In this document: piece after piece, positions 17,781-44,062 of the stretch
Layout: each line of letters opens with the position of its first letter
Numbering within the stretch: the stretch's first letter is position 1
From: Amoeboaphelidium occidentale
Taxonomy: Eukaryota
Direction: 5' to 3'
Assembly: GCA_023515795.1 (NCBI GenBank)
Contig: JALGPX010000101.1
Coordinates: 1 to 44,062, forward strand
DNA: 44,062 nt
The notes under the pieces: generated by a model
Database searches by the model: none
What the model was told of the DNA's origin: nothing
Seen by the model: the letters and a program-made list of their open reading frames with translations, nothing else
Translations under genes and position numbers: made by a program

Positions 17781-17898
17781 TTACAAGAAACAGTCAGTGA
17801 AGAATTACGCAGCTATAATCATCCTGCCTGAACTTTAATTTTAAAGTTTGATCTACAGGTGAAACACTATCCTTAACTTTATCAAAAGTATTTATAGA

Positions 17899-19708
17899 AT
17901 GATCAAACTGCGCCACCTTCTTAGCAAAAGCACGAGCAAACTCAAATTCTCTATTGCAAATCCCGTAAACAAAAAAGTTAATTCGGCGCTCATTTTCGGA
18001 ACGACGTTATCTTTTGGCGCTTATCATTTCTTAACGATGGATTCCGTAAAAGCGGCTGATCACATAAACTTCTCGGACGCAGACAACTTATTCAAAGACA
18101 GAAAGACTTGGGACCTCTTCAAATCGCTCGTGGTGTTCCAGCTCTGTCAGTACGACGCTGTTGTGGAGACCTCTCCTGTTCTGCTGAAGTTGGCCTCTAA
18201 GTTCTTTATCACGAGATACATTTCGAACTTTTTAGTAAAGAAGACGTTCTTTTGGCAGTTTTGTGGAGGTGAAGATGAAAAGGAAGTTGCGCCTGTTATT
18301 TTGGATTTATCTGCGCATGGGATCGATTCTATTTTGGACTTGTCGGTCGAGTCTGACCAGGATGCAGATTACACAAAGGATGTAATGGAGCAGATCAAGG
18401 CTTGCATCAAAGCAGCTGCAACGGATGCAAATAATTCTGCTGCTGTTAAAGTCACTGCCTTAGGTTCCACGAAGTCTCTGTTGAATGCTTCTGGTATGAT
18501 GGAGTACCAATGGGATTTGTTTCAGAGCCGCCAAGTCGATGGCGTCATCGATCAGCCGCAGTTTGCAGATCTCATGTCAAAGATGCCTGGTGTTTCATCT
18601 GACACTGACATTTCTGGTTTGTTCAAGAAGGCTGATGTTAAGGGCACCGGAAAAATTACATGGCCTCAGTTTATTGCAGCAGTTAATATTGAAACAACGC
18701 CTTCATTATTCGTTGGCACGGTACCACTTGAAAAACTATCTCAGAAGGAACGTATTTCTGTTTCGGGCAAGTACATTCCCATCTTGAAGCAGGATGATAT
18801 CAAAGAGTTTGGTTTGTTTTCTTCCCGTCTGAAGGAATTATGTGATTATGCTAGTGGTTTGAATGTTTCTCTAATGTTCGATGCAGAGCAGTCTTACTTT
18901 CAATACGCCATCAGTTACATTTCCATGAAAATGATGGCTCAGTACAATAAGTCTGGTCGTGTTTTACTTTANGAAGCAGGATGATATCAAAGAGTTTGGT
19001 TTGTTTTCTTCCCGTCTGAAGGAATTATGTGATTATGCTAGTGGTTTGAACGTGTCTGTAATGTTGGATGCAGAGCAGTCTTACTTTCAATACGCCATCA
19101 GTTACATTTCCATGAAAATGATGGCTCAGTACAATAAGTCTGGTCGTGTTTTACTTTACAACACTTATCAGTTGTACTTGAAAGATTCATTGAAACATTT
19201 ACAATTTGACTATGAAAGAAGCCAGCAGGAGGGTTTCAAGTTTGGTGCTAAACTTGTTCGTGGTGCTTACATGGTATTGGAAAGAAAGAGAGCAAAGGTT
19301 TTGAACGTTCGTGATCCTATTCATGAAAACAAGAACAATACTGACAAGAGTTATTCTGAGGGTTTGCATTACATTATACCAAAAGATAATGTTAAAATCG
19401 TTGTGGCGACACATAACAGAACGTCAATTAATGAAGCGATTTCCATTAGCAAAGGAGGTTCACACATAATGTTTGCTCAATTATACGGAATGTATGATTA
19501 CTTGACCTACAAATTGGCAGATGAAGGATACAAAGTTGCGAAATACATACCGTATGGTCCAGTTGAAGATGTTATCCCTTACTTGATAAGAAGAGCTCAG
19601 GAGAACAAGTCCGTATTGAAATCAAAGGGTGACATTGATGATTTAACATTGATCAAGAAGGAATTAAAACGCCGCTTCTTCCGTAGAAAAGTTGAGCACA
19701 AGGAATAA
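17899..19708 (+). CDS. PUT1: Proline dehydrogenase with an EF-hand-like insertion; apparently split by an assembly duplication at N18972
   Basis: KKTFFWQFCGGED, VKVTALG, DAEQSYFQ, YNTYQLYLKD, KLVRGAYM, VATHN, FAQLYGM, KYIPYGP..VIPYLIRRAQEN. Segment ~18785-18970 is repeated at 18973-19158. Confidence 0.93.
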
Positions 19709-21085: not shown

Positions 21086-24000
21086 CTAATCGTCTACCAA
21101 GTTTATCACGTTATCGTTTACTGCTCTAGGTTGAGGCCTTGGAGGAGTTGCTGAGGATGATCTGATCAGATTTGGTATTGTGTCCGTGCTAGCATGATCT
21201 TTCTTATTGAACGCAGGTGTATAAGGACTAGATGGAACTCTAGGAATATGAGAGCCTTGTTTCGGCTGGTGATTATCGTTAGGTCGTTCCGGAGACGTCT
21301 TGCTTGCTTCAACTTTCTGCATTTTCGGTATGTGGCTGTCCGCAATAGGATGATGCGTTTTCAGATGCTTTCTCAAATCGCTTAACTTTAAATTTAATAT
21401 TGCTTTTTTTCGAGATGCATTTGCATCAAGCTCAGACTTCCGTTTTGTTGCCTCACTCGCTTCAGGGTTTGGTCCAGATGCAGTACCATTCTTCTGGCCT
21501 TCAAAGGGGATTCTGACGAGTTTGTAATTCTTTGGAAAGTCAACAAAATGATAAAGCTCGCAGTGAGATTGCAGTTTCCTAATGCAACTTTCCGTTGATA
21601 AAGAATTAACTCTGATATTGCAACCAGATACCAGACACTGCATCCTAAATATCGAACGTCCGTCCGAGCTAAGGAGCTCCTGTACTCGTATTTCTCGTTC
21701 TTTTACTTTCTTCTTCTGCTCATCTTTTACAATAACATCGTCTTGCTTGTGTTCAGACAAGTGTACATGAATATCCTGTGCTGCATTACCACCCGCTCTA
21801 AATTCTCCACAACCATTGTAAGGACATAAAATGACACTATCTGTATTATTCAATCCAGAAATAAGACGTTCAGGAGCTTTCTGGCCAGAGTGTGAATATC
21901 TGAAATGTTGCAGTAGAGTCTGAAGACAAATTGCAATCGAGCATCCGGTAAAACTCTCCTTGCAGCCAGCAGCCACACATCTTAGATTGATATTTGATTT
22001 TGAAACATCCACAAACTGCCCTTTTGGCGCATTTAATCTGTAATTCGGAGTTGGGCTTGGACTTGGAGTTGCAGATGGCACCGCAGTCGATTCAGCTTTT
22101 TTGGGTGCTTCCATTGGTGCATGTTCAGGTTCTTGTTTTGCAGTGCTGGTTTTTCTTTTAGTCGGTCCTCCGTAAGCATTTTTCCAAACATTCACAAAGT
22201 GATGGTTCAAATTATCCACCGATACATCATTATGCTTCTCATTGTAATGGACAAGTAACATAAATCGGAAATTTTTGGTAGGAGTAAAGTTACTCGAACA
22301 TCTAGGCTCAGGACAGCAAATCAAGTTGTACTTCTGGATAAACGCGTTTGGAAGAGAATGATTCTTGTGAGCGCGAGGAAAATGCGACCTTGTTCCGTTT
22401 AAATTTTTGCCCACGAAACCGCAACCTTGGAACGGACATGGGCAAGGTTGATCTTCGTTTTCAGCATTCAATGCGTCTTCAGTCTTATCATCAGGTTTCA
22501 CTTCCTCCTTTTTGCTTTCTTCAGACTGTTTTTTGATCGAATTCAAGTTACTTTCTCCGGGATGGCGAGCTTTGAGGGATTCGTCTGTCCTAGGAAAATC
22601 CATAAACGCCTTCCTGGTTAGCTCCTGAAGTTTGCGTAATTCAGATTTGACATACATATCGTCCGGCTGATTCATTTCTGGCTTTTCCTCGTTGCTGTGA
22701 CAGTTCATGAGATGAGTATTGTAAACACTCTCAAAATTGTGCGATCTCATGAAAAGAGCTTTACAGCCTGGCTTGCGACATTTTCTCAAACCATATTCTC
22801 TGAGTGTAAATGAAGAAAAGTACTCTGTGGCATGGACGTCTTTCAAGTGCATCAAGAAAGACCTGCTTCCTTTTCCTTTGAAACTACAACCTTCTGCAGG
22901 GCAATTTCGTTTAATTTCATCGGAGACAGCATAAGCCTTATCATTTGTTTTTGATGCACGCTTTTTCTTGCGAAGTTCTTCTTCTTTCAGGATCGGTTCC
23001 CTCGCTAACTTTCTTGCCAACTTTTTGCAGCCCAAAACTGCATCCTCTGAATCTCTTCCTGAATGATCGTTTCGATAATGGGTCATGATGTTGCTTACAT
23101 TGCTTTCCGAAGCAATAAATAATTTCGCACAGTCTAGTTCTGGACAACCATAAAACCCATGGGACGTAAGAAAGGTTATTGAGACCTTTTTGTTTGGATG
23201 GAACTTCTTAAAATGCGCTCTCATATTTGTGTCTGTAAGATCTTTCCGATTGCAANNNNNNNNNNNNNNNNNGCAATAAATAATTTCGCACAGTCTAGTT
23301 CTGGACAACCATAAAACCCATGGGACGTAAGAAAGGTTTTTGAGACCTTTTTGTTTGGATGGAACTTCTTAAAATGCGCTCTCATATTTGTGTCTGTAAG
23401 ATCTTTCCGATTGCAATCATCAAACGGACAACAACTTTTAGACTTTTTCTCTTGTGTTTCCTCCAACTTTTCTTCCTCTTTCTTTTCAATATCTGTGCCG
23501 GTATTTTCGGTAGTTTCATGTGATTTCATATGTGTTATCATCAGCGCCATTCCATCTTTAGTATTTCTAAACACATCGCAACCAGCTATTGGGCAAACAG
23601 TTATTTCGTATCTTTTGCAAAAATCGATGAAAGCGGGATTCTCTTTGTAACCAGGATGCCAGCGACTAAAATGATTTTTAACATACCGAGTGAAAGATGA
23701 CGATATTTCAAACTCGTGCTCGCATAGCGGACATTTAGCCGTTTCCGTCGATGAGATATCATCACCAATTAATTTTTCAATATAATCAGTACTATCGGTA
23801 TCCGTGTCATCGTCATCGAAAGTAGAATCGGAACTATCACCATCATCGAAGTCTAATTCTCCGTCAATCTTCATTTCATCCTCGGCTTTATCAACCTTAT
23901 TATCGAGAACCGTGGAATTTGAGGTGGAAACATTTTCAACAGCACCAGCACGATCTTGACTTTGAACATTTATCGTAGCTGCCTTAACCTCTTGAGGGCG

Positions 24001-24615
24001 ACCTGCTTCAGTGATTTCCTTCTTATCGACCTCTTCGGTCTTTAACTCAGGTCCATCTTTAACAAAATCCTTGACATCGACCGCATTCTTTACTTCTTTA
24101 GCTTCCTTAGCTTCAACACTCTCCGTTGGTTTTAGATCTTTCGGATCGGAGACAGTTCCTTGCCCATCAACATTTGATCCAGAAATTTGGTAAGGCGTAT
24201 TGAAAAAAGTCTCCGACTGACTATAAAATGAGAGCTTAGGCCTTTCCAAAGACTTTTCAGTAGCGCTTATCACTCCAAAGTCATTACACGCCAACAACTG
24301 CAATGTGCCATAACGCAATCTTGTTGCTCCTCGTTCAGGATTCCGGCTAAACACTTTGAACACGTTAAACACATTCTGTTTCTGGAAATCTGGTGGAATA
24401 TTTTCTTTGGCGGATGCGGTAGAACTGGGATGTTCTCCATATGAGTGATTGCAAGACTTCCACTCGCTATCCTTTCGGTGCGATAAATTCCTTTCAGGTA
24501 AAGCAGTCACCGAGACAACTGGTTCAGCTAAGATCAGTCCATGAGACAAAAGCATGTGCATAGATAACGTTTCCCTGCTCTCAAAGGCTGTCGAACAACT
24601 CGCGCAGAATTCCAT
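21086..24615 (-). CDS. Large (~1,100 aa) multi-C2H2 zinc-finger protein with about 12 atypical fingers; interrupted by an assembly gap and duplication at 23256-23272
   Basis: Repeated CPxxGC..HxxxxH units (CPLC, CPIAGC, CPFDDC, CPELDC, CPAEGC, CRKPGC, CPFQGC, CPEPRC, CVAAGC, CPYNGC, CLVSGC). Sequences either side of the gap overlap. Confidence 0.8.
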
Positions 24616-25002
24616 TACGATTCAAAAAAGATCCAAGCCACATCAAGAACAAGTTTCATTTGATAATTACAGAATTTATTGAAAATCTAGTTTNNNNNNN
24701 NNNNNNNNNNNNNNTTTGGCTGATGCGGTAGAACTGGGATGTTCTCCATATGAGTGATTGCAAGACTTCGACTCGCTATCCTTTCGCTGCGATAAATTCC
24801 TTTCAGGTAAAGCAGTCACCGAGACAACTGGTTCAGCTAAGATCAGTCCATGAGACAAAAGCATGTGCATTGATAACGTTTCCCTGCTCTCAAAGGCTGT
24901 CGAACAACTCGCGCAGAATTCCATTTCGATTCAAAAAAGATCCAAGCCACATCAAGAACAAGTTTCATTTGATAATTACAGAATTTATTGAAAATCTAGT
25001 TT
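24406..25002. repeat. Duplicated ~290 bp block (5' end of the zinc-finger gene) either side of gap 24694-24714
   Basis: 24406-24693 and 24715-25002 are nearly identical with scattered SNPs. This explains ORF 24676-24924. Confidence 0.85.
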
Positions 25003-29253: not shown

Positions 29254-31560
29254 TTAAGCAACGACTACTCCTCTTCTCTCAGGAACTATAACAAATAGCA
29301 CAATTCGATCTGAAGTGCCATCATGAGGCAAACCTTTGATCCAATTCAATTCAGCATTCACAACCATGTTCTCTGAATCGAACACAGGCTCCATAAGGAA
29401 GAACGCAGGCACGGGCTCAAGATTATCTAGATTAGAGGCATACTCTCTGAAGTCATTTTCCGTGAAACAACTTTTTTGCAATCCTTTGGTCAACACAATG
29501 TGAATTGAATAATCTTTAGGCACGCGCTCAAGAATAGTTTTCATGGCAGCAGGATCTGCACAGCCGCTACAATCCTTTGCCTCACCACTAAAAACCTTGT
29601 CGTCAGAAGAAAAATCGGTGCGATCCGCCATCAAAGTCCTCTTACACGTTGCCAACAACACACCAGACTGATTACATGCCTTCATAAAGTCGCCATCAAG
29701 TTCCTGGTTTGGAGCAAGTAGAAATGGAATTATTCTCTCATTGCAAGCAGTTAAAGGTTGTCCGGTTAATTGTCCAGGACCGGCAGTAGCGTCATTTCCC
29801 GAATACAATTCATACGCCAGCTGTGGTAAAAATTCCTGAAACCCAATCCCAGCCACTCCATTCATATGTGACGAATGGATAATCGTACTGACCATGCATG
29901 CTTCCAGGAAATTCCCATCGTTGCTTTTTTGCTGAATATTTTTAAGCTTAATGCATTTCTCTTTCACTTTTGCACTTAATTGAACCTCATTCATCAAGTT
30001 CATGTACGGGCGCCTTTCAATCTCATCCATGATGTCCACAAAAATTCCCGATCTGTTTTTGGTGCCGATCATCGTCAAATGCAACAGCAAATCCTCATCT
30101 GGTGTCGGAAATAATGCCACCGGGACCCAGGCCATTGTTTCATCTTGTAGATTTTTATATACCAAGTATCCTCGAAAAGGGGCGAGTTCCAACACATCTA
30201 TCTCAGTATACAAGTTGGCATAGTGTCTGTCAATGAGACTACTTTCCTGCGCCAAATCGGCCAACGCATAGGAACAATTCAGAGTCAGCATAAGCTGTCC
30301 TCGTTGGGAGTCGGCCGTTGAGCCTATTTCTATCCAGTCAACAAATTTATCATGCAAGTAATCGAGCATGTTGTCCAGATAAGGCACAAAACCACCTGAG
30401 GGCCCATGTCGCAGGAGATAGTCAACTGCCTCTACGGCAAACAAAGGCCTAGAATTAAGAATCATATCCTTGATCAAACCGAATTCCCCGTCGAGCTGAT
30501 AATTCAACGAATCAAATCCACAACTTTGCTCAGTAACTTTAGTTGCCTTCGTAAAGATCCTGGCCCATTTCTGTGATTTACCTCGGCTTATCGTACTTTG
30601 CTCAACTATATCAGTGGCCGAAGTATTTGCGCCCATAAGAAGAGGATTCAAACCTACTGCACTAAAACAATTACGAATGAATTGTAATTGTGTCGGACTC
30701 TTATCACCGGCGGTATTGTACTCGTCAATAATGATAACAGGCTTGTTATACTTATTATTAATCCAACGCTGAGCAACTTTATCAGCCATCTCAGGCACAA
30801 TGAGCCACATTCCTTGCGGAGCGCCGTCATCCAATAATTTCCTCATAAACCCAAACACATATAAAGGTCGAATTCTCAGAGCTTCAGGGTCAAGTTGATC
30901 ATCCCTCAAATTTTGCAAGTCAGCTTCCACGCAGTCATGAAACAATTCAGTGATTTTGTTGTAAAAGTTATAAATCGATTGCGTGGTTCCGTTAAACCGC
31001 TGTCCAAGCAAGTAAACAACTTTTCTCTTTCCTTCATAGCATTTCATAAGATTGTGCGCCATTTGTGTTTTTCCCATGCCGGAGGATAAACCATAAAATA
31101 TGATTTCTTCTTCGTTCGTTTCGATTACATCTTCAATTAGCTGTACTAATTCTTTAGTCGCAGGATCATCCTTCAAACATTCAGCTCTTGCAAGATATTC
31201 ATTACGAACTGCTGCGTATGCCATGCTGGGAATCATGAGGCCCGAAATAGCAGGAGCACGATAAGGCTGAACATTCTGCCGCGATGGCTGGATTGTCGGA
31301 GGAGTCAGCGTGCGAATTTCCAGAGCCAAGCCGCCCTTCTCGATCTTCTTGTAATATTCTTCAGGAAGCGCTCTTAAATCAGCCATTGTAGCAATTTGCT
31401 CATCTGAATGAGGCTTGTACAGCTGAATTGCAGCAGGAGGTGCGGGAATGAGGTCACCAAAGTCGGCTTTGATTGCCCTTCGTAATTCGCTGATGACTTC
31501 CATCTCATCTGTTCTGATTTCGAAAGGTAACTGGCCATAGACAACGTTAAGGAACGGCAT
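29254..31560 (-). CDS. Crinkler/RHS-type effector: N-terminal header, P-loop NTPase and C-terminal restriction-endonuclease-fold domain
   Basis: Header FLNVVY....EI.......ELRRAIKADF....PAAIQLY. Walker A GLSSGMGKT, Walker B VIIIDE. PD-(D/E)xK-like DRTDF...FSGEAKD. Confidence 0.72.
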   Translation of the reverse strand: MPFLNVVYGQLPFEIRTDEMEVISELRRAIKADFGDLIPAPPAAIQLYKPHSDEQIATMADLRALPEEYYKKIEKGGLALEIRTLTPPTIQPSRQNVQPYRAPAISGLMIPSMAYAAVRNEYLARAECLKDDPATKELVQLIEDVIETNEEEIIFYGLSSGMGKTQMAHNLMKCYEGKRKVVYLLGQRFNGTTQSIYNFYNKITELFHDCVEADLQNLRDDQLDPEALRIRPLYVFGFMRKLLDDGAPQGMWLIVPEMADKVAQRWINNKYNKPVIIIDEYNTAGDKSPTQLQFIRNCFSAVGLNPLLMGANTSATDIVEQSTISRGKSQKWARIFTKATKVTEQSCGFDSLNYQLDGEFGLIKDMILNSRPLFAVEAVDYLLRHGPSGGFVPYLDNMLDYLHDKFVDWIEIGSTADSQRGQLMLTLNCSYALADLAQESSLIDRHYANLYTEIDVLELAPFRGYLVYKNLQDETMAWVPVALFPTPDEDLLLHLTMIGTKNRSGIFVDIMDEIERRPYMNLMNEVQLSAKVKEKCIKLKNIQQKSNDGNFLEACMVSTIIHSSHMNGVAGIGFQEFLPQLAYELYSGNDATAGPGQLTGQPLTACNERIIPFLLAPNQELDGDFMKACNQSGVLLATCKRTLMADRTDFSSDDKVFSGEAKDCSGCADPAAMKTILERVPKDYSIHIVLTKGLQKSCFTENDFREYASNLDNLEPVPAFFLMEPVFDSENMVVNAELNWIKGLPHDGTSDRIVLFVIVPERRGVVVA

Positions 31561-31966
31561 TATAAGTGACTTTTCTAAGGAAGAATTTCAGCGTGGTGAC
31601 TCATGCTTCAAAAGTGATCCAACAAGTAGAAAACATTTTTGAGTCACAATAGCTTGCGATGATCTCCCTTGCAAGTTCGATGTGAAGTCGCAGTTGAATG
31701 AGATCGACCTGTCTGTTTCAGGTAGCGTCTCAATTGATAGCTGCCTTCTTTGATCTTTTGGTGTTTCATGATAAGCGCAATTATGATAGTGACTGCTTCA
31801 TTGATCAGATCGCCTTAGTGATTAAGCTCCTACTTTAACCGTAATTTAGAATGCATTTCATTACGTTTCTGCGTGTGAACTTGTCCATCAAGCTTTTGCA
31901 GTTTCCTGATTGCGACAAGCCACGAGGCGCTTTTGTTTCTTAAGGCGTTCCCCTATTACAGCGATT

Positions 31967-33529
31967 ATGGACGATTATTTTCAGTGCTGCCCTGAGGAAG
32001 ACTGCGATTTTGTAGCGCGTGGTCAGGGCGCCAAGAAGAAGGTTCGCCTGCATTTCAGTAGAGTGCACAAGAACAAAACGATTCCTAATGATTTATTACT
32101 TCACTCTGAGAATGCTATGGAGTGTCCCTTCGAAGGGTGCACCGTGAAAATGTGTGGCCTCAACAAAATTGCTAATCTTCGGAATCACTACGAAACTGTT
32201 CATGCTGGACATGAATTACCGCAAATATTAAGAAGGGTCCGGCCACAGAAGAGTACTGCTGATGTTGATCCATTGGAAAGACTTTGGAAGGGTTGTGTTC
32301 CTGTTCCGGAAGCTAAATTGAAGAAGATTCCTGTTTTATCAAGAAAAGTAAGGCTGTCACAAGAGGAGGACGAGGATGATGATAAGAATTCTGATATTGA
32401 AACCGCGATTTTGGAACGGAAGCCACGTAGAGGCGTTTTGGGTTTGGGTGCATTAGTTACAAAGAGCGCAAGTGATAAAGAGAATGGTGTCAAGTCTTCA
32501 TCATCCTCTAGCTCAGAGATTTCATTCGAAGATGACGAGAATGAAAGTGACTCCAGTGATAACAGCGTTTTGGTTGAATTCGCAAAAGGAGGGCTGCCAC
32601 AGGCACAATGGAAACAGGATTTAAAGAGTAATTCCTCTGAGGACGATGATGAAGATACGGAGTTGAAGCCGGCTGCTCCGTTTCAGCCAGAATCGAAAGT
32701 AAGCGAGACATTTTTTATTGAAGATACCGATGAAGAGCAGGCAGATTCTGGTGCATCTATAGTTTACTCTGGATCAGATGCCGATTTAGCTCCTTATGAA
32801 AGTGAAATGGAATTCTTTGATTCCTTGTTTAAAGATAAAACGCCAAAGAAGCGAAAGAATCAAAATACTAAAGCGCGAAAGAATGGCAATAGTAGGAAGA
32901 AGAAGTTGTCGAAAGATCTTGATGATATGATACCAGAGACTCCAGTGGTACAGACCACTACAGTTATTTATTTACCAGATAGTCCTAAAGAAACTCCAAA
33001 GCATGAGAAGCCCTGTTATCTTTCAGAATCGAGCAACACTGATGAAGAGCAAATTGAAAAGAAACCGCTCATACAGCTGAACAGAAGAAAATTGAAGCGA
33101 CCAAATTTAAAGAACTTTGATGGATCGTTTGGAGATGATTCAAAGCATGAAACAGATGGCTTAGTTCAAACAAAGATTGGAAACTTCTTTTCTCCTGTAA
33201 AGCCTCCAAGTGAAGAGCAGTCAAAAAGGCTTTCAAGTAGAAGAGATTCTTTGCTGGGAACTGATGCACCAGAAACTCCAACAAAGAAACTTGATACTGA
33301 GTCTTCATTTAAACAGCAACAGAACACCTCCTTAACAGAAGCTGAACTTCAAAAGGAGGAAATCATACCAAAAATCAAGGCTAAGTCTATGTCGTGGCGG
33401 GCTTACACGAAATCGAACACTACAAGCAATAACGTAAAAGTGGTTGGCGAGATTAGTCTTTTATCAGATTATGAAGAGAATTTTCATGAGAATACTACTG
33501 GGAGTGAAATCATAGTGCTATCCGACTAA
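31967..33529 (+). CDS. Paired atypical C2H2 zinc-finger protein with a long acidic/Ser-rich disordered tail
   Basis: CCPEEDC..HFSRVH..CPFEGC..HYETVH at the N-terminus and NLS-like PKKRK / RKKK. Confidence 0.75.
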   Translation: MDDYFQCCPEEDCDFVARGQGAKKKVRLHFSRVHKNKTIPNDLLLHSENAMECPFEGCTVKMCGLNKIANLRNHYETVHAGHELPQILRRVRPQKSTADVDPLERLWKGCVPVPEAKLKKIPVLSRKVRLSQEEDEDDDKNSDIETAILERKPRRGVLGLGALVTKSASDKENGVKSSSSSSSEISFEDDENESDSSDNSVLVEFAKGGLPQAQWKQDLKSNSSEDDDEDTELKPAAPFQPESKVSETFFIEDTDEEQADSGASIVYSGSDADLAPYESEMEFFDSLFKDKTPKKRKNQNTKARKNGNSRKKKLSKDLDDMIPETPVVQTTTVIYLPDSPKETPKHEKPCYLSESSNTDEEQIEKKPLIQLNRRKLKRPNLKNFDGSFGDDSKHETDGLVQTKIGNFFSPVKPPSEEQSKRLSSRRDSLLGTDAPETPTKKLDTESSFKQQQNTSLTEAELQKEEIIPKIKAKSMSWRAYTKSNTTSNNVKVVGEISLLSDYEENFHENTTGSEIIVLSD

Positions 33530-33615
33530 TTCTGAATTTCGCATGTCACGCTTAGACTTCATGATGGAGGATAATTTGGAGCTGGAACTTTAGTTTTTAT
33601 TGTATTTCAAAATTT

Positions 33616-34170
33616 TCATAAATCATACTCTTTAGCTCCATGTGTCAAGAGTATCTTTTCGCTTATGAGTTGTTTGATGGTTGCGTCTGGCTCCCATGAA
33701 GGCGAAGACTTTACGTGATATTTTTGCTTTGAAACAATAGATCGGAATATGCGCAAGTTACATTCCCGCACATTTAATAAAGATCTGCACCTTTTAAGAG
33801 CAGATATTTGATCTCTTTTAGTTGCATCGAGACCAGAGTCGTCACTATCAGAGCTCGGCAAGTTGTAATCAAGTGATCTCGGTATTGACGACCTCTTATG
33901 CCTGTTTCTGTAGTGCAAAGCCATAATGTGCGATGATTTATAGCTTTTGCAAATAAAGAAATGACACAATTTATTTGGGCATTGTAATAGATCGTGCTTT
34001 TTAGCATACTTTGCATCAATTCTTTGGTTATCGTGTGTCTGAGCAATGTGCTCTGTAAGGCGTGCGGCTCTATCATTGAACGGCACTGAATGATCGCATG
34101 TTTCAAAAGGACATTTTATAGTTCGTGGTGCATATGTACTACAACTTCCGAGTAGTAGTAGAGATGACAT
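33616..34170 (-). CDS. Small paired atypical C2H2 zinc-finger protein
   Basis: CPFETC..HIAQTH..KKHDLLQCPNKLC..HYRNRH. Confidence 0.7.
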   Translation of the reverse strand: MSSLLLLGSCSTYAPRTIKCPFETCDHSVPFNDRAARLTEHIAQTHDNQRIDAKYAKKHDLLQCPNKLCHFFICKSYKSSHIMALHYRNRHKRSSIPRSLDYNLPSSDSDDSGLDATKRDQISALKRCRSLLNVRECNLRIFRSIVSKQKYHVKSSPSWEPDATIKQLISEKILLTHGAKEYDL

Positions 34171-34396
34171 GATTGCACTTTGATCAAACAACAAAATGAG
34201 AACCCAAAGTTGAAACGAACCCAAAGAACCTAAAACGTAGAATATTTATTACAAATCGACTTCAGAGTCAAGTGAGATACTTTTTCTTGCAATCTTGCTT
34301 TTTTTCATGTCGGACATGTCGTTCCTGCACTCTTCATTAGTTTCAACATTCTGATCATAGTTATCCGCGATAAGAAAAGCCTATAAAATAAGTCAC

Positions 34397-36063
34397 TCAA
34401 ATTAAAGCTCTTACTGTTTTCCTTTTCTTTTTCGGTATAACAACCTTGACTTCGGATTGACAATACATTGCTACCTTTTCTGTGTCTTTCATCAAGAAAG
34501 GATCAAGAGGTGCATCAGTATGAACAGTTAACCAATGATCTCTTAGATTGTACCAGCCTTTTTTACCGGTTCTGATATGATTACAGTTTGGATAAGGGCA
34601 TTTGAGAATAGCATTTGTGTTGCGTAATCCAGATGTTTGTTCCAGGACCACGACAGGAGCATCATTTGGTTTTATAGGTTTCAGAACCATGTTGTGAGCA
34701 GCAGGATCTGTATTTTCTTTTGGCCAATAAAATGCATTTGGCAGCTTGGTTTGCTCTCCATTATCATCGTCGATTAGAGCTGGAACTGTTATAGGCGAGA
34801 TGTTAGCGCTGGAATTGTTGCTGCTATTCCTTGACGATGCTTCAGTTGATTCATCCAGCTCTTCATCGTTCCTTTTCATAATAAAATTCGAGAAATTGCT
34901 GTTAATATTCGAGCCGAAGCGATCAGGTACTTTTGATATAATATTTAAAGTTGAATGATTGCTTTTAACTTGCTGGTTTACAGTTTGTGTTTTTGCTGTA
35001 ACCTCATCTTTCTTAGTAGAATTGGAACAACTTGCCTGTGCGAGCTTTATGTAGTGATTGATATCCAGTTGTGGATGATGAAGAGCAATATGAGTCTTCA
35101 GCGTGTGGAACTTTCCAACACCTGAAGCGCTTGAATTACAACCAGGAACAGGGCAAACAACTAGATCATACTTCTTGATAAACTCCTCAGGAAAAGACAA
35201 ACCCTTGTGAACTTTTGTGAAATGTATACGAACATTCATATCAACCTTCGACTTGTACTTGCAACCTTTAATAGGGCAGCAAACCATTTGTGGTTCTTCC
35301 GTTTGTGCTTTAGATTCAACTATTGTTTCAACTAATGATACATCTTCTCTATCTTCAGATCTTCTTGAGGAAGCATTTCGTCTAGGTTTCAATTTACGCC
35401 GACCTTTCTTTTCTGATGGCATGTAATCTTCATCGTTGCTTGGCTCATAATCAGATGCAGGACTTTCGTAACCACTGCGTGCCACTGTTCCAGGAACTGC
35501 CGTTTCATTTCGATTCAATGCAGGTACATGATCTTCTAGTGGTCGCGACTGTGTTAGGTCTTCTTTATGTGCACCTAAACAGGAAATTAGAAATCAACAA
35601 ACAACTCCTGAAACAAACCTCCAGAATGAGCACTTAAGTCTTGAGCATAATAATTCAGCCGGTGTTTCTGTAAGAAATCCATCGATAGTCGTGGATAGTT
35701 TGGATGCACAGCTGAGAAATGATTTAAAGCTGTCTGGACATCCTGAGCATCACATCGAAATGAGCAACCAGCAACAGGACAAGAGATCTCTCTGTCTTTT
35801 AAAACACCGCCACTGCAACCAACAGGTTGACCCGGATACATCAGTTGGCGAGCATGTCTGTATTCTTGTGGAAGAGCATTATGTGGTTGATACTGTCCAG
35901 CGGTCGGAGGTGCAAAAGGAAGTTCTAATTGTGCAACATTGTGTAACAAGTGTAAATTGTTCATCGGTAGGTATGAGGGATGTACAGGATAGTTGAAGGG
36001 GTAGTACATGGGCTTGCCTTGGGCCTTGATGTGTTCATATCCTTGATACTGACCTTGTTTCAT
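34397..36063 (-). CDS. Four-finger atypical C2H2 zinc-finger protein with a P/Q/Y-rich N-terminus
   Basis: ORFs 36063-35587 and 35518-34397 join in frame through a predicted intron at 35618-35575 (GTTTGT..TTTAG). Fingers CPVAGC, CPIKGC, CPVPGC and CPYPNC. NLS-like PKKKRK. A further 3' exon is possible. Confidence 0.75.
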
Positions 36064-36231
36064 GGTTGCGTAGAAATTCTAACAAGCGCGGTTGGTTGTT
36101 GTGAACATTGACGATCATTCAATAGAGCATCATTTCGATCTCTGGAGGTTCAACTAAAGATTAAGGGAATATCAGGCTTCATAAAGCGTACTAAAAGGTT
36201 CAACGTTTTATTAAAGATATGAAGCATATGA

Positions 36232-39550: not shown

Positions 39551-40366
39551 CTAAATACGTCCGCTATCTGTTTCATCGTCGCTGTCCAAGTGCTTGTAGG
39601 GACCTGTGAACTTTGAAGTTGACGCTTTTGGTTGAGCCTGTTGCCTTTTAAGGTTCATTGGTTGGCGTATTATAATCTGTCTCTTATTCTGGCTGCGTTT
39701 CATAAATGCCAAGCTGGGACTGGAAGATAATTCCATGTCATTTGACTCGCTGCGAAGATCATCATCGTCACCAACAACTTCACCGATAACATCCTCATGT
39801 GAAGTAAGACTGGCAACAGCAGAATCTTCATCGCTCTCATCTGAAATCTCGTGTTTTACCTTCACAGCCTTCAAGTAAGTTAAGCTTTCTGTGAAGCGAA
39901 AGGGTTTACCTTCTTTGCTCGCTTAAGCACACGACCATATGAGGGCATTTCTTTATCAGGATGCTTTAAATTGTAGCTAAAAACATTAAAATGCTCTCAG
40001 TAATGTGAAAGGTTACTGTGTCTTCATGTGGTTGAATCTGTTCTTTCCTGATCTCTTAATAGGACATCCTGGTTCTTGGCAATAGATAACATCATCATAC
40101 TTGGATAAGCGAGGTTCGAGTTCTTTCTCGGTAGGTTCAGGTTCTGACTTGTGATTTTGAGCGTAATGTGATAAGATTAATGGCCTGGCTTCTTCTCCAG
40201 TCTTGCGGAAGGTGCACCTTGGAGATGGGCAGTAAATGTATAGGATTGATGCTAATTTCTTCGAGTGGGCGTCCAAGTCGTGTGGTTGTCTTTTTCTCCC
40301 ACTCCCTGGCTCTGCTGATTCTCCGTTCTCTGGGAGGTTTGGGAGGGTATCTGCTGAGTTAACCAT
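39551..40366 (-). CDS. Paired atypical C2H2 zinc-finger protein with an acidic tail (three exons)
   Basis: CPSPRC..HYAQNH..CQEPGC..HMKTH/YNLKHP is completed across a GTAACC..TTTAG intron near 40018-39977. A second intron near 39909-39870 joins ORF 39551-39874. Confidence 0.7.
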
Positions 40367-40515
40367 ATTGAGGCGTATGATCTTTTGAATTGAATCAGGA
40401 CGTTGGCGGCGCGAAGGTCGACAATTGGAAATCCAAACTGATAGAGTTTCAGCTAGGAAACTAACATCAGCTCATCTTTTAATACATATTTATTGATCAT
40501 TTTTACTTGAATTCT

Positions 40516-43500
40516 TTAAATCAAATAGTTCATTTCAGATATTTCATAGGTATTGTTGCCTTCATTCGGTACAGGAGCAATAAATGGGACAAGTGCATCT
40601 TGTGAGCTCCAGTAAATGGAGTTAAACATTCTCCAATAGCATTCGCGTACTTTACGTGCTGGATGAAACAAGCCTTGAATAACATACAATGCAATGATTC
40701 CACCACCAAGTGCAACTCTTAAACCTTCAATCGCGTCATTAAAAGCCAAATGAATGTGTGCTGTTGTTTCAAAGATATTAGGCCAGACAAAGTTTAATAA
40801 GTGATGAAGAACATCCTCACGATCTGCAGCAAAGCAACCAAGAGCTAAATGTTTGATTGCGGAACATGAAGTCTGTCTATGAACCAAATCTCGATCCATC
40901 AGTGCATCTTCAAGCAGAGGTGCAATCGCATATACATAATCTTTACAAACATCGCCAACATACTCAAAAGTAAAAGCCAAAGCTTTTAAAACACCATTCT
41001 GTACATTCAGTTCTGGAGTGCGATATTCATTCATCAAAGCAGGCAATACAGTGAATGGTGAACAACTTTCTGCAACAATAGCAATGGCGATAGTGGTACA
41101 TAGACGGAGCTGTCTTTCTTGGACTTTGAGGTTATTCAATAAGGTCACAAGAACATCTTGAGGGCCGATGGCTTTGGAAATGTGTCCAAAAGTTAAAATA
41201 GCAGCTCTGCGGATAGACTTTCGAGGAGCTTTCAATGTTTCCAAAAGCTCAAAACAAATACGCATCCATTCTCGAGCAGACACATGCTCATGACCTCTCT
41301 CAGCAATTTTACCAACCAAGTCGATAGAATGTTCCTGCACTTTTTCGTGCCTATTCTTCAGAATTGGTGTTAATCTTGGAAGCAAGTCCTTAATTGGTGG
41401 TTCCATCTTTTGCATTCCTACAGTGTAAACAACACCTTTCAGTCCAACCAAAATTGAAGCCAAGACTTCAGGGTATTCTTCTCCAAGATTCTCATAAAGT
41501 ACTTTACCAAAGTTAATCAAGACAGCTTCTTGGTCACAATCAATTAGGACTGGAGCTAGTCTGCCAATTAATTCTGCGGCTTCTTGTCTTATTCTGGAAC
41601 TTTTGTTATTCAATCTCCACAGAAGCAGCGCACAAATATTCTCCAAGTATGGCAACATTCTTGAGCCAATACTGCCAAAGATTGTGCCAATAGCATCCAA
41701 CTGATTGCGATAGTCGTCCGACTGAATGTTTTCAAAAACATAGATTAAGCCGTCAACCATTAATTCTTCTAAACGACGATCATTCTTCAAATCCGCAACA
41801 CCCATATCACCAATGATGACATGTAGACAATCCAGTGACATTTTCCTAAAGCTTTCTTGCTCATCTTTCAAAATTGGCACCAAGTATGAAATTATTCTAC
41901 GCGAACCAACTCTTTTTGCCAAGTACCAAGTCGTCTCAACAACTTGTTTGTAATTTCTACGATCCACTGCCATGCGACGAATCCAAAAGTTATCGAAATA
42001 CGGCCTGACCATATCTTCAATAACATGATTTTCAATCCCTTGAGTTTGAGTAATTTGCTTCACAACTTTCAAGACAATCTTCTTCATTTCATCATCAGGT
42101 GAAGCAAATTCTCTCATTACAACAGGAATAATTCTCTTACTATATGCTGAAGCGAATTCCATATCCATCAAAGGTATAATCATTCCGATAGCTTTCAAAA
42201 ATGCTGCCAACGCTTTTCCTCTCATTTTCCTGACACCTTCATACAACGGTTTTAAAATTCCTTCAAACGATTCGAAGCCATAAGGATAAGAACTTTCAGC
42301 CAACGAACTGAGAGCTAAGGCAGTCATTATTCTAACTTTTTGATTATCATCCTCAAGACCAACTTTGATTGCATCAACCAATTGGCTAAGATAAGGAAGT
42401 ATACCACAACCCAGCAGAATACTGATCTGTTGCACAATCTTTACACCAGTATGACGTGCCTGCCATGATTTCTTACTTTTACATACAGCGCGGATAAAAT
42501 GAATGACTGAATCAACTCCTAAAGCGGATGCTACAACAGAAAATGCACGAGCTGTGGTATTTCTCACAAACTCATCAACATGATCAATATCAGGGCGCAT
42601 TACAGACACCATCGTAGCCAAACCGACAGCCTTACTCAAGTTACTAATGATTTCTCTGCCTTCGATTCTAGCGTAGTAATCTTCGTCAACCAACATTGGC
42701 TCGAACACAACCAGTATCTTGTGCACATAGGGATTAACTTCAGTCTGCAATTTGAATATCATCCTGTCAGCAACTTTAACCAACAAATGACGTTCCTTTG
42801 CGTCTAAGTGCGGAGACATAAGCAAAGGCAAAAGCGCATCAAAGATCATCTTGGCCCCGAACTCCTGAGCTTTGTCAGTCAATAATTTCAAAGACTGTTT
42901 TCTTATCGCAGGCATACCATTCTTAATACGCAACAGTAAACGCAATAACTTTCTTTCCTTCAATTCCTCCAAAGTCATGGAATCTTCATCCTTCTCGTTA
43001 TTCAACAGCTTAGCAAAGAATTGAACATCTTCCGGTTTAAACAGAGGCAAAGATTCATCACCGCCACCCAAGTTCGGAACCAAAGCCGTGCCAGCCTCAG
43101 CGGATGCCGCAATGTAAAACTCTGAGCCTTCCTTTTCCTCAGCCTTATATTCCTTCGCCTTAAAAACAGGTTTATAATCAGCTGGCGGTTCAACGATGAC
43201 GTAACCTTCTTGTGGAAGCATGGCGTCCAATTCTTCATCCGTCAAGTAACGATTCCTCCATTCCATTTCCCTTTCGATCGGCGTTTTCGATGTGACGGAG
43301 GATGCCAACGAAGGGGCAACGGATGCGCCGTCCTCAGCCGTTTCCATTGCGCTTTCTTCTCCTGCGTCGCCCTTCTTATCCCATCGTGAGGTGCGTTCCT
43401 TTCTTTTTAATTCTTCCAATTCCCTCCCGATCTGCGCTTCCTTGACGTACTCTGCGTAGGATGCATTGCGGTCAGGCGATAAAACTCTTTTGTCTCTGTA

Positions 43501-43590
43501 CGTTGAGACTTCTTTTCTATTTCTGTCCGGTTCCTCGTCTCCCGGTTGGAGCGGAGGTTGTAATTGCTTGTGAAGATCCCACCTGGACAT
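40516..43590 (-). CDS. SF3B1: U2 snRNP splicing factor SF3B1 (Hsh155)
   Basis: SRWD ULM motifs, [19 protein letters not shown] repeats [44 protein letters not shown] and NVQNGVLK. First ATG at 43590. Confidence 0.97.
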
Positions 43591-43608
43591 TTGCAATTGT
43601 GATTGAGC

Positions 43609-43755
43609 AAACTCAGATTGTTGAGTTTAAGTAATCAGCACTTTTGTGCTACGTTATTCAGCACTAGACTGAAAAACGCGGAATTCCAATTACTCAACTC
43701 GGTATATGTAACAAACGCTATAAAATAGCAATGTACTCCGTAAGACCCTCCGCAA
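43609..43755 (-). ncRNA. Putative omegaRNA scaffold / element 3' end of the Fanzor
   Basis: Lies immediately 3' of the nuclease stop and contains at least five stems: AAACTCA/TGAGTTT, AGCAC/GTGCT, CGTT-TTCAG/CTGAA-AACG, GCTAT/ATAGC, and a 12-bp stem 43623-35/43689-700. The G-U pairs form only on the minus strand. Confidence 0.6.
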
Positions 43756-43972
43756 TTAAGCATTGGTTGAGCTACAAAATTTGTATGATCTTGAGAATTT
43801 TTCTGGTCTGACTCCATTGGATGCATTCACTGAGATGAAAACTTCTCTGATGTTCACTGCAGCATTGACATCTCTGTTCCAAAAGATGTTGCAGTTATCA
43901 CATCGTTTCACGTGCCACATTCCCCTCTTTGGTAACGGTTCCTTGCATTTACAACAAAGCATGCTTGTTCTG
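43756..43972 (-). mobile_element. C-terminal part of a eukaryotic TnpB-family (Fanzor, Fanzor1-like) RNA-guided nuclease; truncated by N43973 and the window edge
   Basis: RTSMLCCKC (TS-xx-CxxC), RCDNC and WNRDVNAAVNI (RuvC-III), plus a C-terminal RPEKFSR motif. Confidence 0.82.
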
Positions 43973-43973
43973 N

Positions 43974-44062
43974 AAACTCAGATTGTTGAGTTTAAGTAAT
44001 CAGCACTTTTGTGCTACGTTATTCAGCACTAGAATGAAAAACGCGGAATTCCAATCACTCAA
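43974..44062. repeat. Second copy of 43609-43697 (two SNPs) after N43973
   Basis: Direct identity starting AAACTCAGATTGTTGAG. Confidence 0.85.

What the first reader, a model, noticed from the sequence alone, without database searches (positions are those of the whole stretch)
43756..43972. Eukaryotic TnpB/Fanzor RNA-guided nuclease C-terminus hidden in a 68-aa ORF
Seen: the minus strand reads RTSMLCCKC-x13-RCDNC-NIF-WNRDVNAAVNI-x12-RPEKFSR-stop. Known: TS-xx-CxxC...CxxC..RDxNAAxNI is the zinc ribbon and RuvC-III signature of TnpB/Cas12f/Fanzor, and WNRD plus a terminal RPxxFxR is typical of eukaryotic Fanzor1. The catalytic Asp of RuvC-III is intact. Inference: this zoosporic-fungus-like genome carries an OMEGA-type programmable nuclease, and the rest of the ORF should lie beyond the N or the window edge.
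Basis: partly seen in the sequence, partly recalled or inferred. Interest (0 to 1): 0.9.

Follow-up and report, generated by a model that had tools for sequence, protein, structure and literature searches.

The report
Fanzor1 transposon end beside essential gene
This is the tail end of a mobile Fanzor1 element (a known kind of eukaryotic RNA-guided DNA-cutting gene, already listed for this fungus relative), inserted 32 bases in front of an essential splicing gene here but absent from that spot in four other populations, and it carries a predicted guide RNA that would target the empty version of the site.

Summary
The motif is real and is Fanzor1. The 71 codons at 43759-43971 (minus) are 94-97% identical to the C-termini of longer proteins, three named Amoeboaphelidium occidentale, which carry RuvC-I Asp and the alternative Glu. 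Profiles and a fold model rank Fanzor1 structures first. One relative, KAI3660383.1, is already in the Fanzor tables of Saito 2023 (as FZ1) and Yoon 2023. Corrections: ten more codons follow RPEKFSR, and the DNA after the N is a restart duplicate of 43609-43697, not the rest of the gene. Added here: the element's right end is at 43623, 32 bp upstream of the SF3B1 start codon. The site is empty in 4 of 7 runs laid. The terminal 83 nt fold strongly (z -4.6) as a candidate omegaRNA scaffold, whose predicted guide matches the empty allele. The junction has no TA, unlike Spu-1; it reads TT|TT, as for Helitron2. Whether this copy is full length or active is not shown. Known kind, modest interest.

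The parts
43756..43971 (-). 3' end of a Fanzor1 ORF: C4 zinc finger (TNB), RuvC-III WNRD (Asp at 43872-43870), RPxxFxR tail, TAA at 43758-43756; cut off 5' by an assembly gap
43623..43755 (-). Non-coding right end of the element, 133 bp from the stop codon to the insertion junction at 43622|43623
   Evidence: Different flanks join at 43617-43625 in 6 of the 7 runs laid (X1, X2, X3, X6, X7, X10); empty allele diverges after 43622
43623..43700 (-). Predicted omegaRNA scaffold core: basal stem closing at the element end, with two inner hairpins
   Evidence: -27.7 kcal/mol, z -4.61, 0 of 200 shuffles for 43623-43705; plus strand z -3.94; lowest z of 22 sliding windows. Expression not shown
43716..43730 (-). 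Possible first stem-loop (6 bp) of the omegaRNA; weak
   Evidence: Appears in folds; on its own z -1.59, 18 of 200 shuffles as good. Fanzor1 omegaRNAs have a 7-bp SL1 (PMC11423790)
43608..43622 (-). Predicted 14-15 nt guide: host DNA just outside the right end, identical in position to the sequence beside the junction in the empty allele
   Evidence: By analogy with SpuFz1 (PMC10432273 section 7); junction; not tested
40516..43590 (-). Host SF3B1 (U2 snRNP) gene, one 1024-codon frame, same strand as Fanzor; ATG 32 bp from the element end
   Evidence: PF08920 E 7e-17 plus HEAT repeats; distance and absence of an upstream ATG in 43591-43755
43973..44062 (.). Assembly gap (N) and restart duplicate of 43609-43697 (14 nt of flank plus 75 nt of element end, 2 differences)

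Best explanation
The stretch is the 3' end of one copy of a multicopy Fanzor1 element, inserted 32 bp upstream of SF3B1, whose right end likely encodes a guide RNA that would direct the family's nuclease to cut the empty allele of this site and so likely help the element persist. Shown: Fanzor1 family membership, the right-end junction at 43622|43623, other insertion sites, and an empty allele in other populations. Inferred from SpuFz1 and TnpB: (1) the last ~80-115 nt are transcribed with ~15 nt of flank as an omegaRNA; (2) Fanzor protein from this or another copy binds it; (3) the complex cuts DNA in which an A-rich motif (the empty allele reads ...GCAA just 5' of the guide match) precedes the guide match, which is true of the empty allele but not of the filled one; (4) repair from the filled allele restores or spreads the element. 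Movement to new sites needs a transposase in trans, which I did not find; a Helitron2-type enzyme is the leading guess (about 35%). Odds: Fanzor1 family 0.97; right end is an omegaRNA template 0.85; family still has an active nuclease 0.7; this copy is full length about 0.5.
For: 94-97% identity to P0001-P0004. D311, G451, E486 and D521 of P0003 are invariant in 14 of 14 aligned relatives and match the Fanzor signature (PMC10530073; PMC10711439). Profile of closest relatives: SpuFz1 3.6e-24, GtFz1 2.9e-20, PpFz1 5.3e-13, other TnpB-family entries 4.5e-5 or weaker. Model of P0003: Foldseek top hit SpuFz1, E 1.3e-14, TM 0.56; Z 15.2, rmsd 4.4, 382 aligned. Listed as FZ1 in Saito 2023. ORF contig depth 1118 against 104 for the SF3B1 contig in X1. 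Empty site in X3, X6, X7, X10, each with 31 or more letters on both sides. Fold z -4.61 ending at the junction; variants at 43690 and 43691 give G-U pairs on the minus strand, and 4 of 5 positions of one loop vary.
Against: No RNA or activity data. No stored protein is a clearly whole, intact ORF: P0003 has Tyr for the third zinc Cys and lacks the N-terminus, P0002 and P0004 have internal gaps, P0005 and P0006 break off; 3 of 6 family proteins match the full motif. The plus strand folds nearly as well (z -3.94), so a DNA hairpin signal is not excluded. No compensatory double change was seen; variants at 43661, 43669, 43672, 43675 and 43696 break predicted pairs. At this site the predicted guide competes with the terminal pairs of the stem (pair probability falls from 0.86-1.0 to 0.27-0.49 with a 14-15 nt guide). 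No run showed both alleles, so homing has not been seen. The family-only profile gives only weak PDB hits (PpFz1 0.002); the model has mean pLDDT 60. X1's contig passes the filled junction by 25 nt, short of the tool's 31-letter rule.
Confidence: 0.65

Rival explanations
1. A dead or 5'-truncated remnant: the copy is Fanzor1-derived but makes no working nuclease or guide, and the folded end is a DNA signal for a rolling-circle (Helitron2-type) transposase rather than an RNA.
For: The empty site reads TT|TT on the plus strand; HLE2 elements insert between T and T (PMC11417382) and Fanzor1-carrying Helitron2 copies are often 5'-truncated (PMC3627910). In 5 of 11 listed right-end junction rows the match extends over TT. 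Plus-strand fold z -3.94. Several family proteins are broken.
Against: The fragment has all four Cys, the Asp and no stop in 71 codons. G-U-compatible variants favour the minus-strand RNA. The two roles do not exclude each other. 3 of the 11 rows lack TT near the junction; rows share loci and are not independent. No transposase domain in 14 long relatives.
Confidence: 0.22
2. Co-option: the element's right end now supplies the promoter or 5' leader of SF3B1 in strains that carry it, so the insertion is kept by selection on the host gene.
For: Junction 32 bp from the ATG, same strand, no upstream ATG in the element end. SF3B1 contigs in X2 and X4 (two studies, kind not on record) stop at 43593/43594 without loose ends where DNA runs go on, a weak hint that the native transcript starts about 29 bp inside the junction.
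Against: Four populations lack the insertion, so it is not needed by the species. A 29-bp core promoter may suffice. X2 and X4 are not known to be RNA. No transcript data for a filled strain.
Confidence: 0.07
3. Assembly chimera: a repeat end was wrongly joined to the SF3B1 upstream region.
For: The assembly has duplicates at 8 of 8 gaps; four runs show other DNA after 43622.
Against: The junction is present in both copies in the window and in a 12.5-kb contig of X1 assembled separately (25 nt past the junction; X1 may be the same strain). The break falls at the same place as the family's other junctions.
Confidence: 0.04
4. Not Fanzor1: a Fanzor2, a bacterial TnpB contaminant or an unrelated zinc ribbon.
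For: The 71-aa piece alone hits TnpB and Fanzor2 entries weakly and no Fanzor1 entry (best E 0.09).
Against: Full-length relatives rank Fanzor1 first by profile and fold. No relative in viral contigs; only two 16-residue matches in prokaryote genomes. It abuts a eukaryotic gene.
Confidence: 0.02

Closest known systems
A. occidentale KAI3660383.1 (MP638_005397, P0003) and its family; FZ1 node357 in Saito 2023 supplementary file 3, also in Yoon 2023 Table S2
   Same: 94% identical over the whole fragment; same family; KAI3661712.1 is a further listed member.
   Different: Listed as protein rows only. I found no description of its ends, omegaRNA, TAM or activity (searches: 0 papers each). P0003 has Tyr at the third zinc Cys; the window copy keeps Cys.
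SpuFz1 / Spu-1 element of Spizellomyces punctatus (PDB 8GKH)
   Same: Best structural and profile match; DPN, alternative Glu, WNRD and RPxxFSR motifs; structured non-coding end between stop codon and junction; no transposase seen with the gene.
   Different: About 20% identity. Spu-1 has 30-33 nt terminal inverted repeats and putative TA duplications with TAM CATA; here the empty site has no TA. Stop-to-end distance is 133 bp against about 80. P0002 and P0005 have an N-terminal CxxC-GH-C knuckle-like motif.
CRe-1/2/3 Fanzor1 elements of Chlamydomonas (non-autonomous Helitron2)
   Same: Fanzor1 cargo; T-rich insertion sites (PMC3627910); hairpins near the end.
   Different: Left end, asymmetric inverted repeats and RepHel partner could not be tested here. 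The T-rich flank lies at the end downstream of the ORF, on the opposite strand.
ISDra2 TnpB (IS200/IS605) and Fanzor2
   Same: Shared zinc finger and RuvC-III; the cut-and-copy role is borrowed from TnpB (PMC10432273 discussion).
   Different: Much weaker matches (Z 10.4-10.6 over 174-187 residues); the family is about 730 alignment columns long with a Fanzor1-type N-terminal half.

Membership tests
Fanzor1 | C-terminal motif D-x(125-275)-[TS][TS]xx-C4 zinc finger-x(5-50)-RD (Bao and Jurka) | tested here: met
   Zinc finger and RD in the window; full motif in P0001, P0002, P0004; not in P0003, P0005, P0006
Fanzor1 | Rearranged RuvC-II: Gly/Pro at the canonical Glu site and an alternative Glu six residues before the zinc finger | tested here: met
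   G451 and E486 of P0003, invariant in 14 of 14. Met for the family; this copy is cut two codons after the Glu
Fanzor1 | RuvC-I DP(G/N) aspartate | tested here: met
   GIDPN in P0001-P0005; SpuFz1 has DPN. Not visible in the window copy
Fanzor1 | Closer to Fanzor1 than to Fanzor2/TnpB/Cas12f over the whole length | tested here: met
   published tree label FZ1. My own tree had no reference Fanzors and does not test this
Fanzor1 | Lies in a eukaryotic mobile element | tested here: met
   Several insertion flanks and an empty allele; eukaryotic neighbours
Fanzor1 | omegaRNA transcribed from the right end with a variable 3' guide | tested here: inconclusive
   Strong predicted fold ending at the junction; no Rfam family; no RNA reads
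Fanzor1 | RNA-guided, TAM-dependent DNA cleavage | not testable with these tools
   Needs an RNP assay
Spu-1 / Mariner-type carrier | TA target-site duplication | tested here: not met
   Empty junction reads TT|TT (plus) with no TA in 4 of 4 runs
Helitron2 (HLE2) carrier | Insertion between T and T | tested here: inconclusive
   True of this site; TT adjoins in 5 of 11 junction rows, is 1-2 bases off in 3, absent in 3
Helitron2 (HLE2) carrier | [quoted passage not shown] | not testable with these tools
   Left end not in the window; no genome held; no locus found

The most novel reading that the evidence does not exclude
A natural, still-polymorphic RNA-guided gene drive at an essential eukaryotic gene: a Helitron2-like Fanzor1 element sits in the core promoter of SF3B1, its guide targets the empty allele found in wild populations, and the host gene now depends on or tolerates transcription from the element's end. 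Filled and empty strains of one culturable species would make the open question of what Fanzors do in vivo directly testable.
Probability: 0.12. Interest if true: 0.75.

Novelty: already known. Interest (0 to 1): 0.33.

Why it matters
The nuclease family is catalogued, so the gene itself is no surprise. The useful additions are the element's right-end boundary, a candidate omegaRNA, a TAM prediction taken from a real empty site, and a filled/empty polymorphism next to an essential gene. The biological role of Fanzors was stated as unknown in Saito 2023 (discussion); a site with both alleles in nature is where homing could be tested. A Fanzor1 with an A-rich TAM would also be one more candidate editor.

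Tried and rejected
Reading through the N: the plus-2 frame has stops and the DNA is a duplicate. Other copies in the window: none by tblastn or blastn. Whole genome: not held. Cluster membership could not be looked up. JGI metagenome contigs: 43 pattern matches, 0 confirmed; right-end DNA pattern, 0 matches. Viral contigs: 0. Prokaryote genomes: 2 of 21 candidates passed, both 16-residue matches that I treat as chance. Fused forms of 978-2790 aa: 0 of 1888 candidates (weak, since KAI3661712.1 of 1479 aa is listed). Transposase domains in 14 long relatives: none at E 1e-4. Rfam: 6 matches, all far below gathering scores. My first guess for the RNA, 43690-43830, does not fold (z +1.65); 43706-43790 neither (z -0.75). 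Bacterial promoter scan: nothing, and not suited to a eukaryote. My early idea that the post-N copy is the empty haplotype was dropped: it holds 75 nt of the element end. The lack of X1 cover at 43726-43791 is not used (records are filtered). P0006 was left out of the tree because it is fused to an unrelated domain. No complex prediction was run.

Full report
Observation. The minus strand at 43971-43756 encodes 71 residues and a TAA. It holds a C4 zinc finger, WNRD and RPEKFSR, followed by ten more codons. Pfam PF07282 passes its cut-off (30.8 against 26.3 bits), and the motif pattern arose 0 times in 200 shuffled windows. On its own the piece gives only weak PDB hits (best E 0.09).

The gap. 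The N at 43973 is followed by a 97.8% copy of 43609-43697. All 8 N gaps of the window are followed by a copy of DNA that lies before them; in 6 of the other 7 the copy runs up to the gap. The sequence after the N therefore restarts the same locus. If the scaffold continues, the rest of the gene could follow about 275 bp past the window edge; I could not see this, as no genome is held. Whether this copy is whole is open.

The family. A search of longer proteins gave 4 hits among 8 candidates, 94-97% identical, three labelled Amoeboaphelidium occidentale; a second search added two more from that species and seven distant proteins. They carry GIDPN (RuvC-I), Gly at the canonical RuvC-II position, DEFRTS with the Glu six residues before the first Cys, and WNRD. 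This is the rearranged site described for Fanzors (PMC10530073, passages; PMC10711439, passages). D311, G451, E486 and D521 of P0003 are invariant in 14 of 14 aligned relatives (14 chosen from the top of 150 listed, 949 hits in all). That profile ranks SpuFz1, GtFz1 and PpFz1 first (3.6e-24, 2.9e-20, 5.3e-13; next 4.5e-5); an earlier profile with more distant members gave 2.5e-74 for SpuFz1, while the near-identical family alone gave only 0.002 for PpFz1. A model of P0003 (mean pLDDT 60) matches SpuFz1 best (E 1.3e-14, TM 0.56; Z 15.2, rmsd 4.4, 382 residues). Against an intact family: only 3 of 6 family proteins match the full motif, and none is plainly whole.

Already catalogued. The first 400 residues shown for KAI3660383.1 (558 aa) match P0003; it is labelled FZ1 in supplementary file 3 of Saito 2023 (PMC10432273; 38 Amoeboaphelidium rows, 37 seen) and is in Table S2 of Yoon 2023. 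The supplements of Jiang 2023 gave no hit. Full-text searches for Fanzor with Amoeboaphelidium or aphelid, and for the species with genome and transposable, gave 0 papers each; the library holds open-licence papers only.

The element and its site. I laid 7 of 22 listed runs. In X1 the contig over the ORF has depth 1118 against 104 for the SF3B1 contig, in line with a repeat of about ten copies (depth is no exact copy number). Contigs with unrelated flanks join at 43617-43625 in six runs, which sets the right end at about 43623. In X3, X6, X7 and X10 the SF3B1 upstream region runs on after 43622 into the same other sequence: an empty allele. X1 passes the filled junction by 25 nt (below the 31-letter rule; it may be the window's own strain). 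X2 and X4 stop at 43593/43594, before the junction. No run showed both alleles. The junction is 32 bp upstream of the SF3B1 ATG, on the same strand, and the element end adds no ATG. The empty site reads TT|TT on the plus strand and has no TA, which differs from Spu-1 (PMC3627910, passages). Of 11 listed junction rows, 5 extend over TT, 3 have TT one or two bases off and 3 lack it; 5 loose-end rows were not shown and rows share loci. HLE2 elements insert between T and T (PMC11417382, passages) and carry Fanzor1 in Chlamydomonas, so Helitron2 is a lead; the left end is needed to test it.

Candidate omegaRNA. The stretch 43623-43705 (bounds taken from an X1 contig, after a first window failed) folds on the Fanzor strand at -27.7 kcal/mol, z -4.61, 0 of 200 shuffles; the plus strand gives z -3.94. 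It is the lowest of 22 sliding windows. The basal stem closes on the last base of the element, so a guide would start in host DNA, as for SpuFz1 (75-nt scaffold plus 14-15 nt, section 7). A 6-bp hairpin at 43716-43730 may be the first stem-loop described for Fanzor1 RNAs (PMC11423790, passages), but is weak alone (z -1.59); the linker 43704-43712 varies and has indels. Of 13 variable places in 43623-43700, 5 are in loops, 2 keep pairing as G-U on the minus strand only, 1 is in a 2-bp helix and 5 break predicted pairs; none is compensatory (read by hand on the fold; variants near contig ends are not listed). By eye it shares CCGAG and CTAGTGC with the SpuFz1 RNA; no statistic was run. Rfam has no match. 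At this site the flank is a 12-of-16 inverted match to the element end, so the guide competes with the terminal pairs and may work poorly.

Mechanism. Shown: family, end, other sites, empty allele. Inferred: an omegaRNA with a guide from 43622 downward; binding by Fanzor made here or in trans; cutting where an A-rich motif precedes the guide match, as in the empty allele (...GCAA) but not the filled one; repair from the filled copy. This follows the TnpB model, which Saito 2023 offers for Fanzors as a possibility (discussion). It also needs filled and empty alleles to meet in one cell, which I have not seen. No transposase was found.

Verdict. It is a copy of a catalogued Fanzor1 family: already known as a protein, with undescribed ends as far as my searches reach. 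Interest 0.33. The boldest reading, a live RNA-guided drive at the promoter of an essential gene, has about 12% odds.

Noticed in passing
window 43600-43615 and 43622-43637: The host flank is a 12-of-16 inverted match to the element's last bases and is present in the empty allele too; the predicted guide can therefore pair with the scaffold's 3' strand. Chance, relic of an older opposite end, or target likeness.
   Followed up: partly
window N positions 949, 1253, 1974, 2927, 18972, 23256-23272, 24694-24714, 43973: Every gap is followed by a 92-99% duplicate of upstream DNA. Apparent tandem repeats and split genes at these places (for example 1655-2428 and the proline dehydrogenase-like gene at 17863-19708) are probably assembly artefacts.
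   Followed up: partly
window 43593-43594: SF3B1 contigs of X2 and X4 (two studies, kind not on record) stop 3-4 bases upstream of the ATG, and their Fanzor contigs stop at 43720 and 43736: a weak hint of transcript ends and of Fanzor expression.
   Followed up: no
runs X3 and X7 at window 43629-43684: A contig matches only the inner 56 bp of the right end with unrelated DNA on both sides: a captured or truncated piece shared by two populations.
   Followed up: no
window 21086-24621, 31910-36078, 40013-40471: Several ORFs with repeated CPxxxC...H...H zinc-finger-like units, a possible lineage-specific expansion; label from reading the sequence, not from a search.
   Followed up: no
window 29254-31587 (minus): A 777-codon ORF with a P-loop (GLSSGMGKT) and an N-terminus that recalls Crinkler-like proteins of early-diverging fungi (recalled resemblance).
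   Followed up: no
P0006: A family member breaks inside the zinc finger and runs into a PF08320 domain: a gene-model merge or an insertion next to a host gene.
   Followed up: no
PMC10432273 supplementary file 3, rows 630 and 1392-1445: Amoeboaphelidium holds many distinct Fanzor families (38 rows); several long entries begin with a region that looks like an XPG/FEN-type nuclease (recalled resemblance).
   Followed up: no
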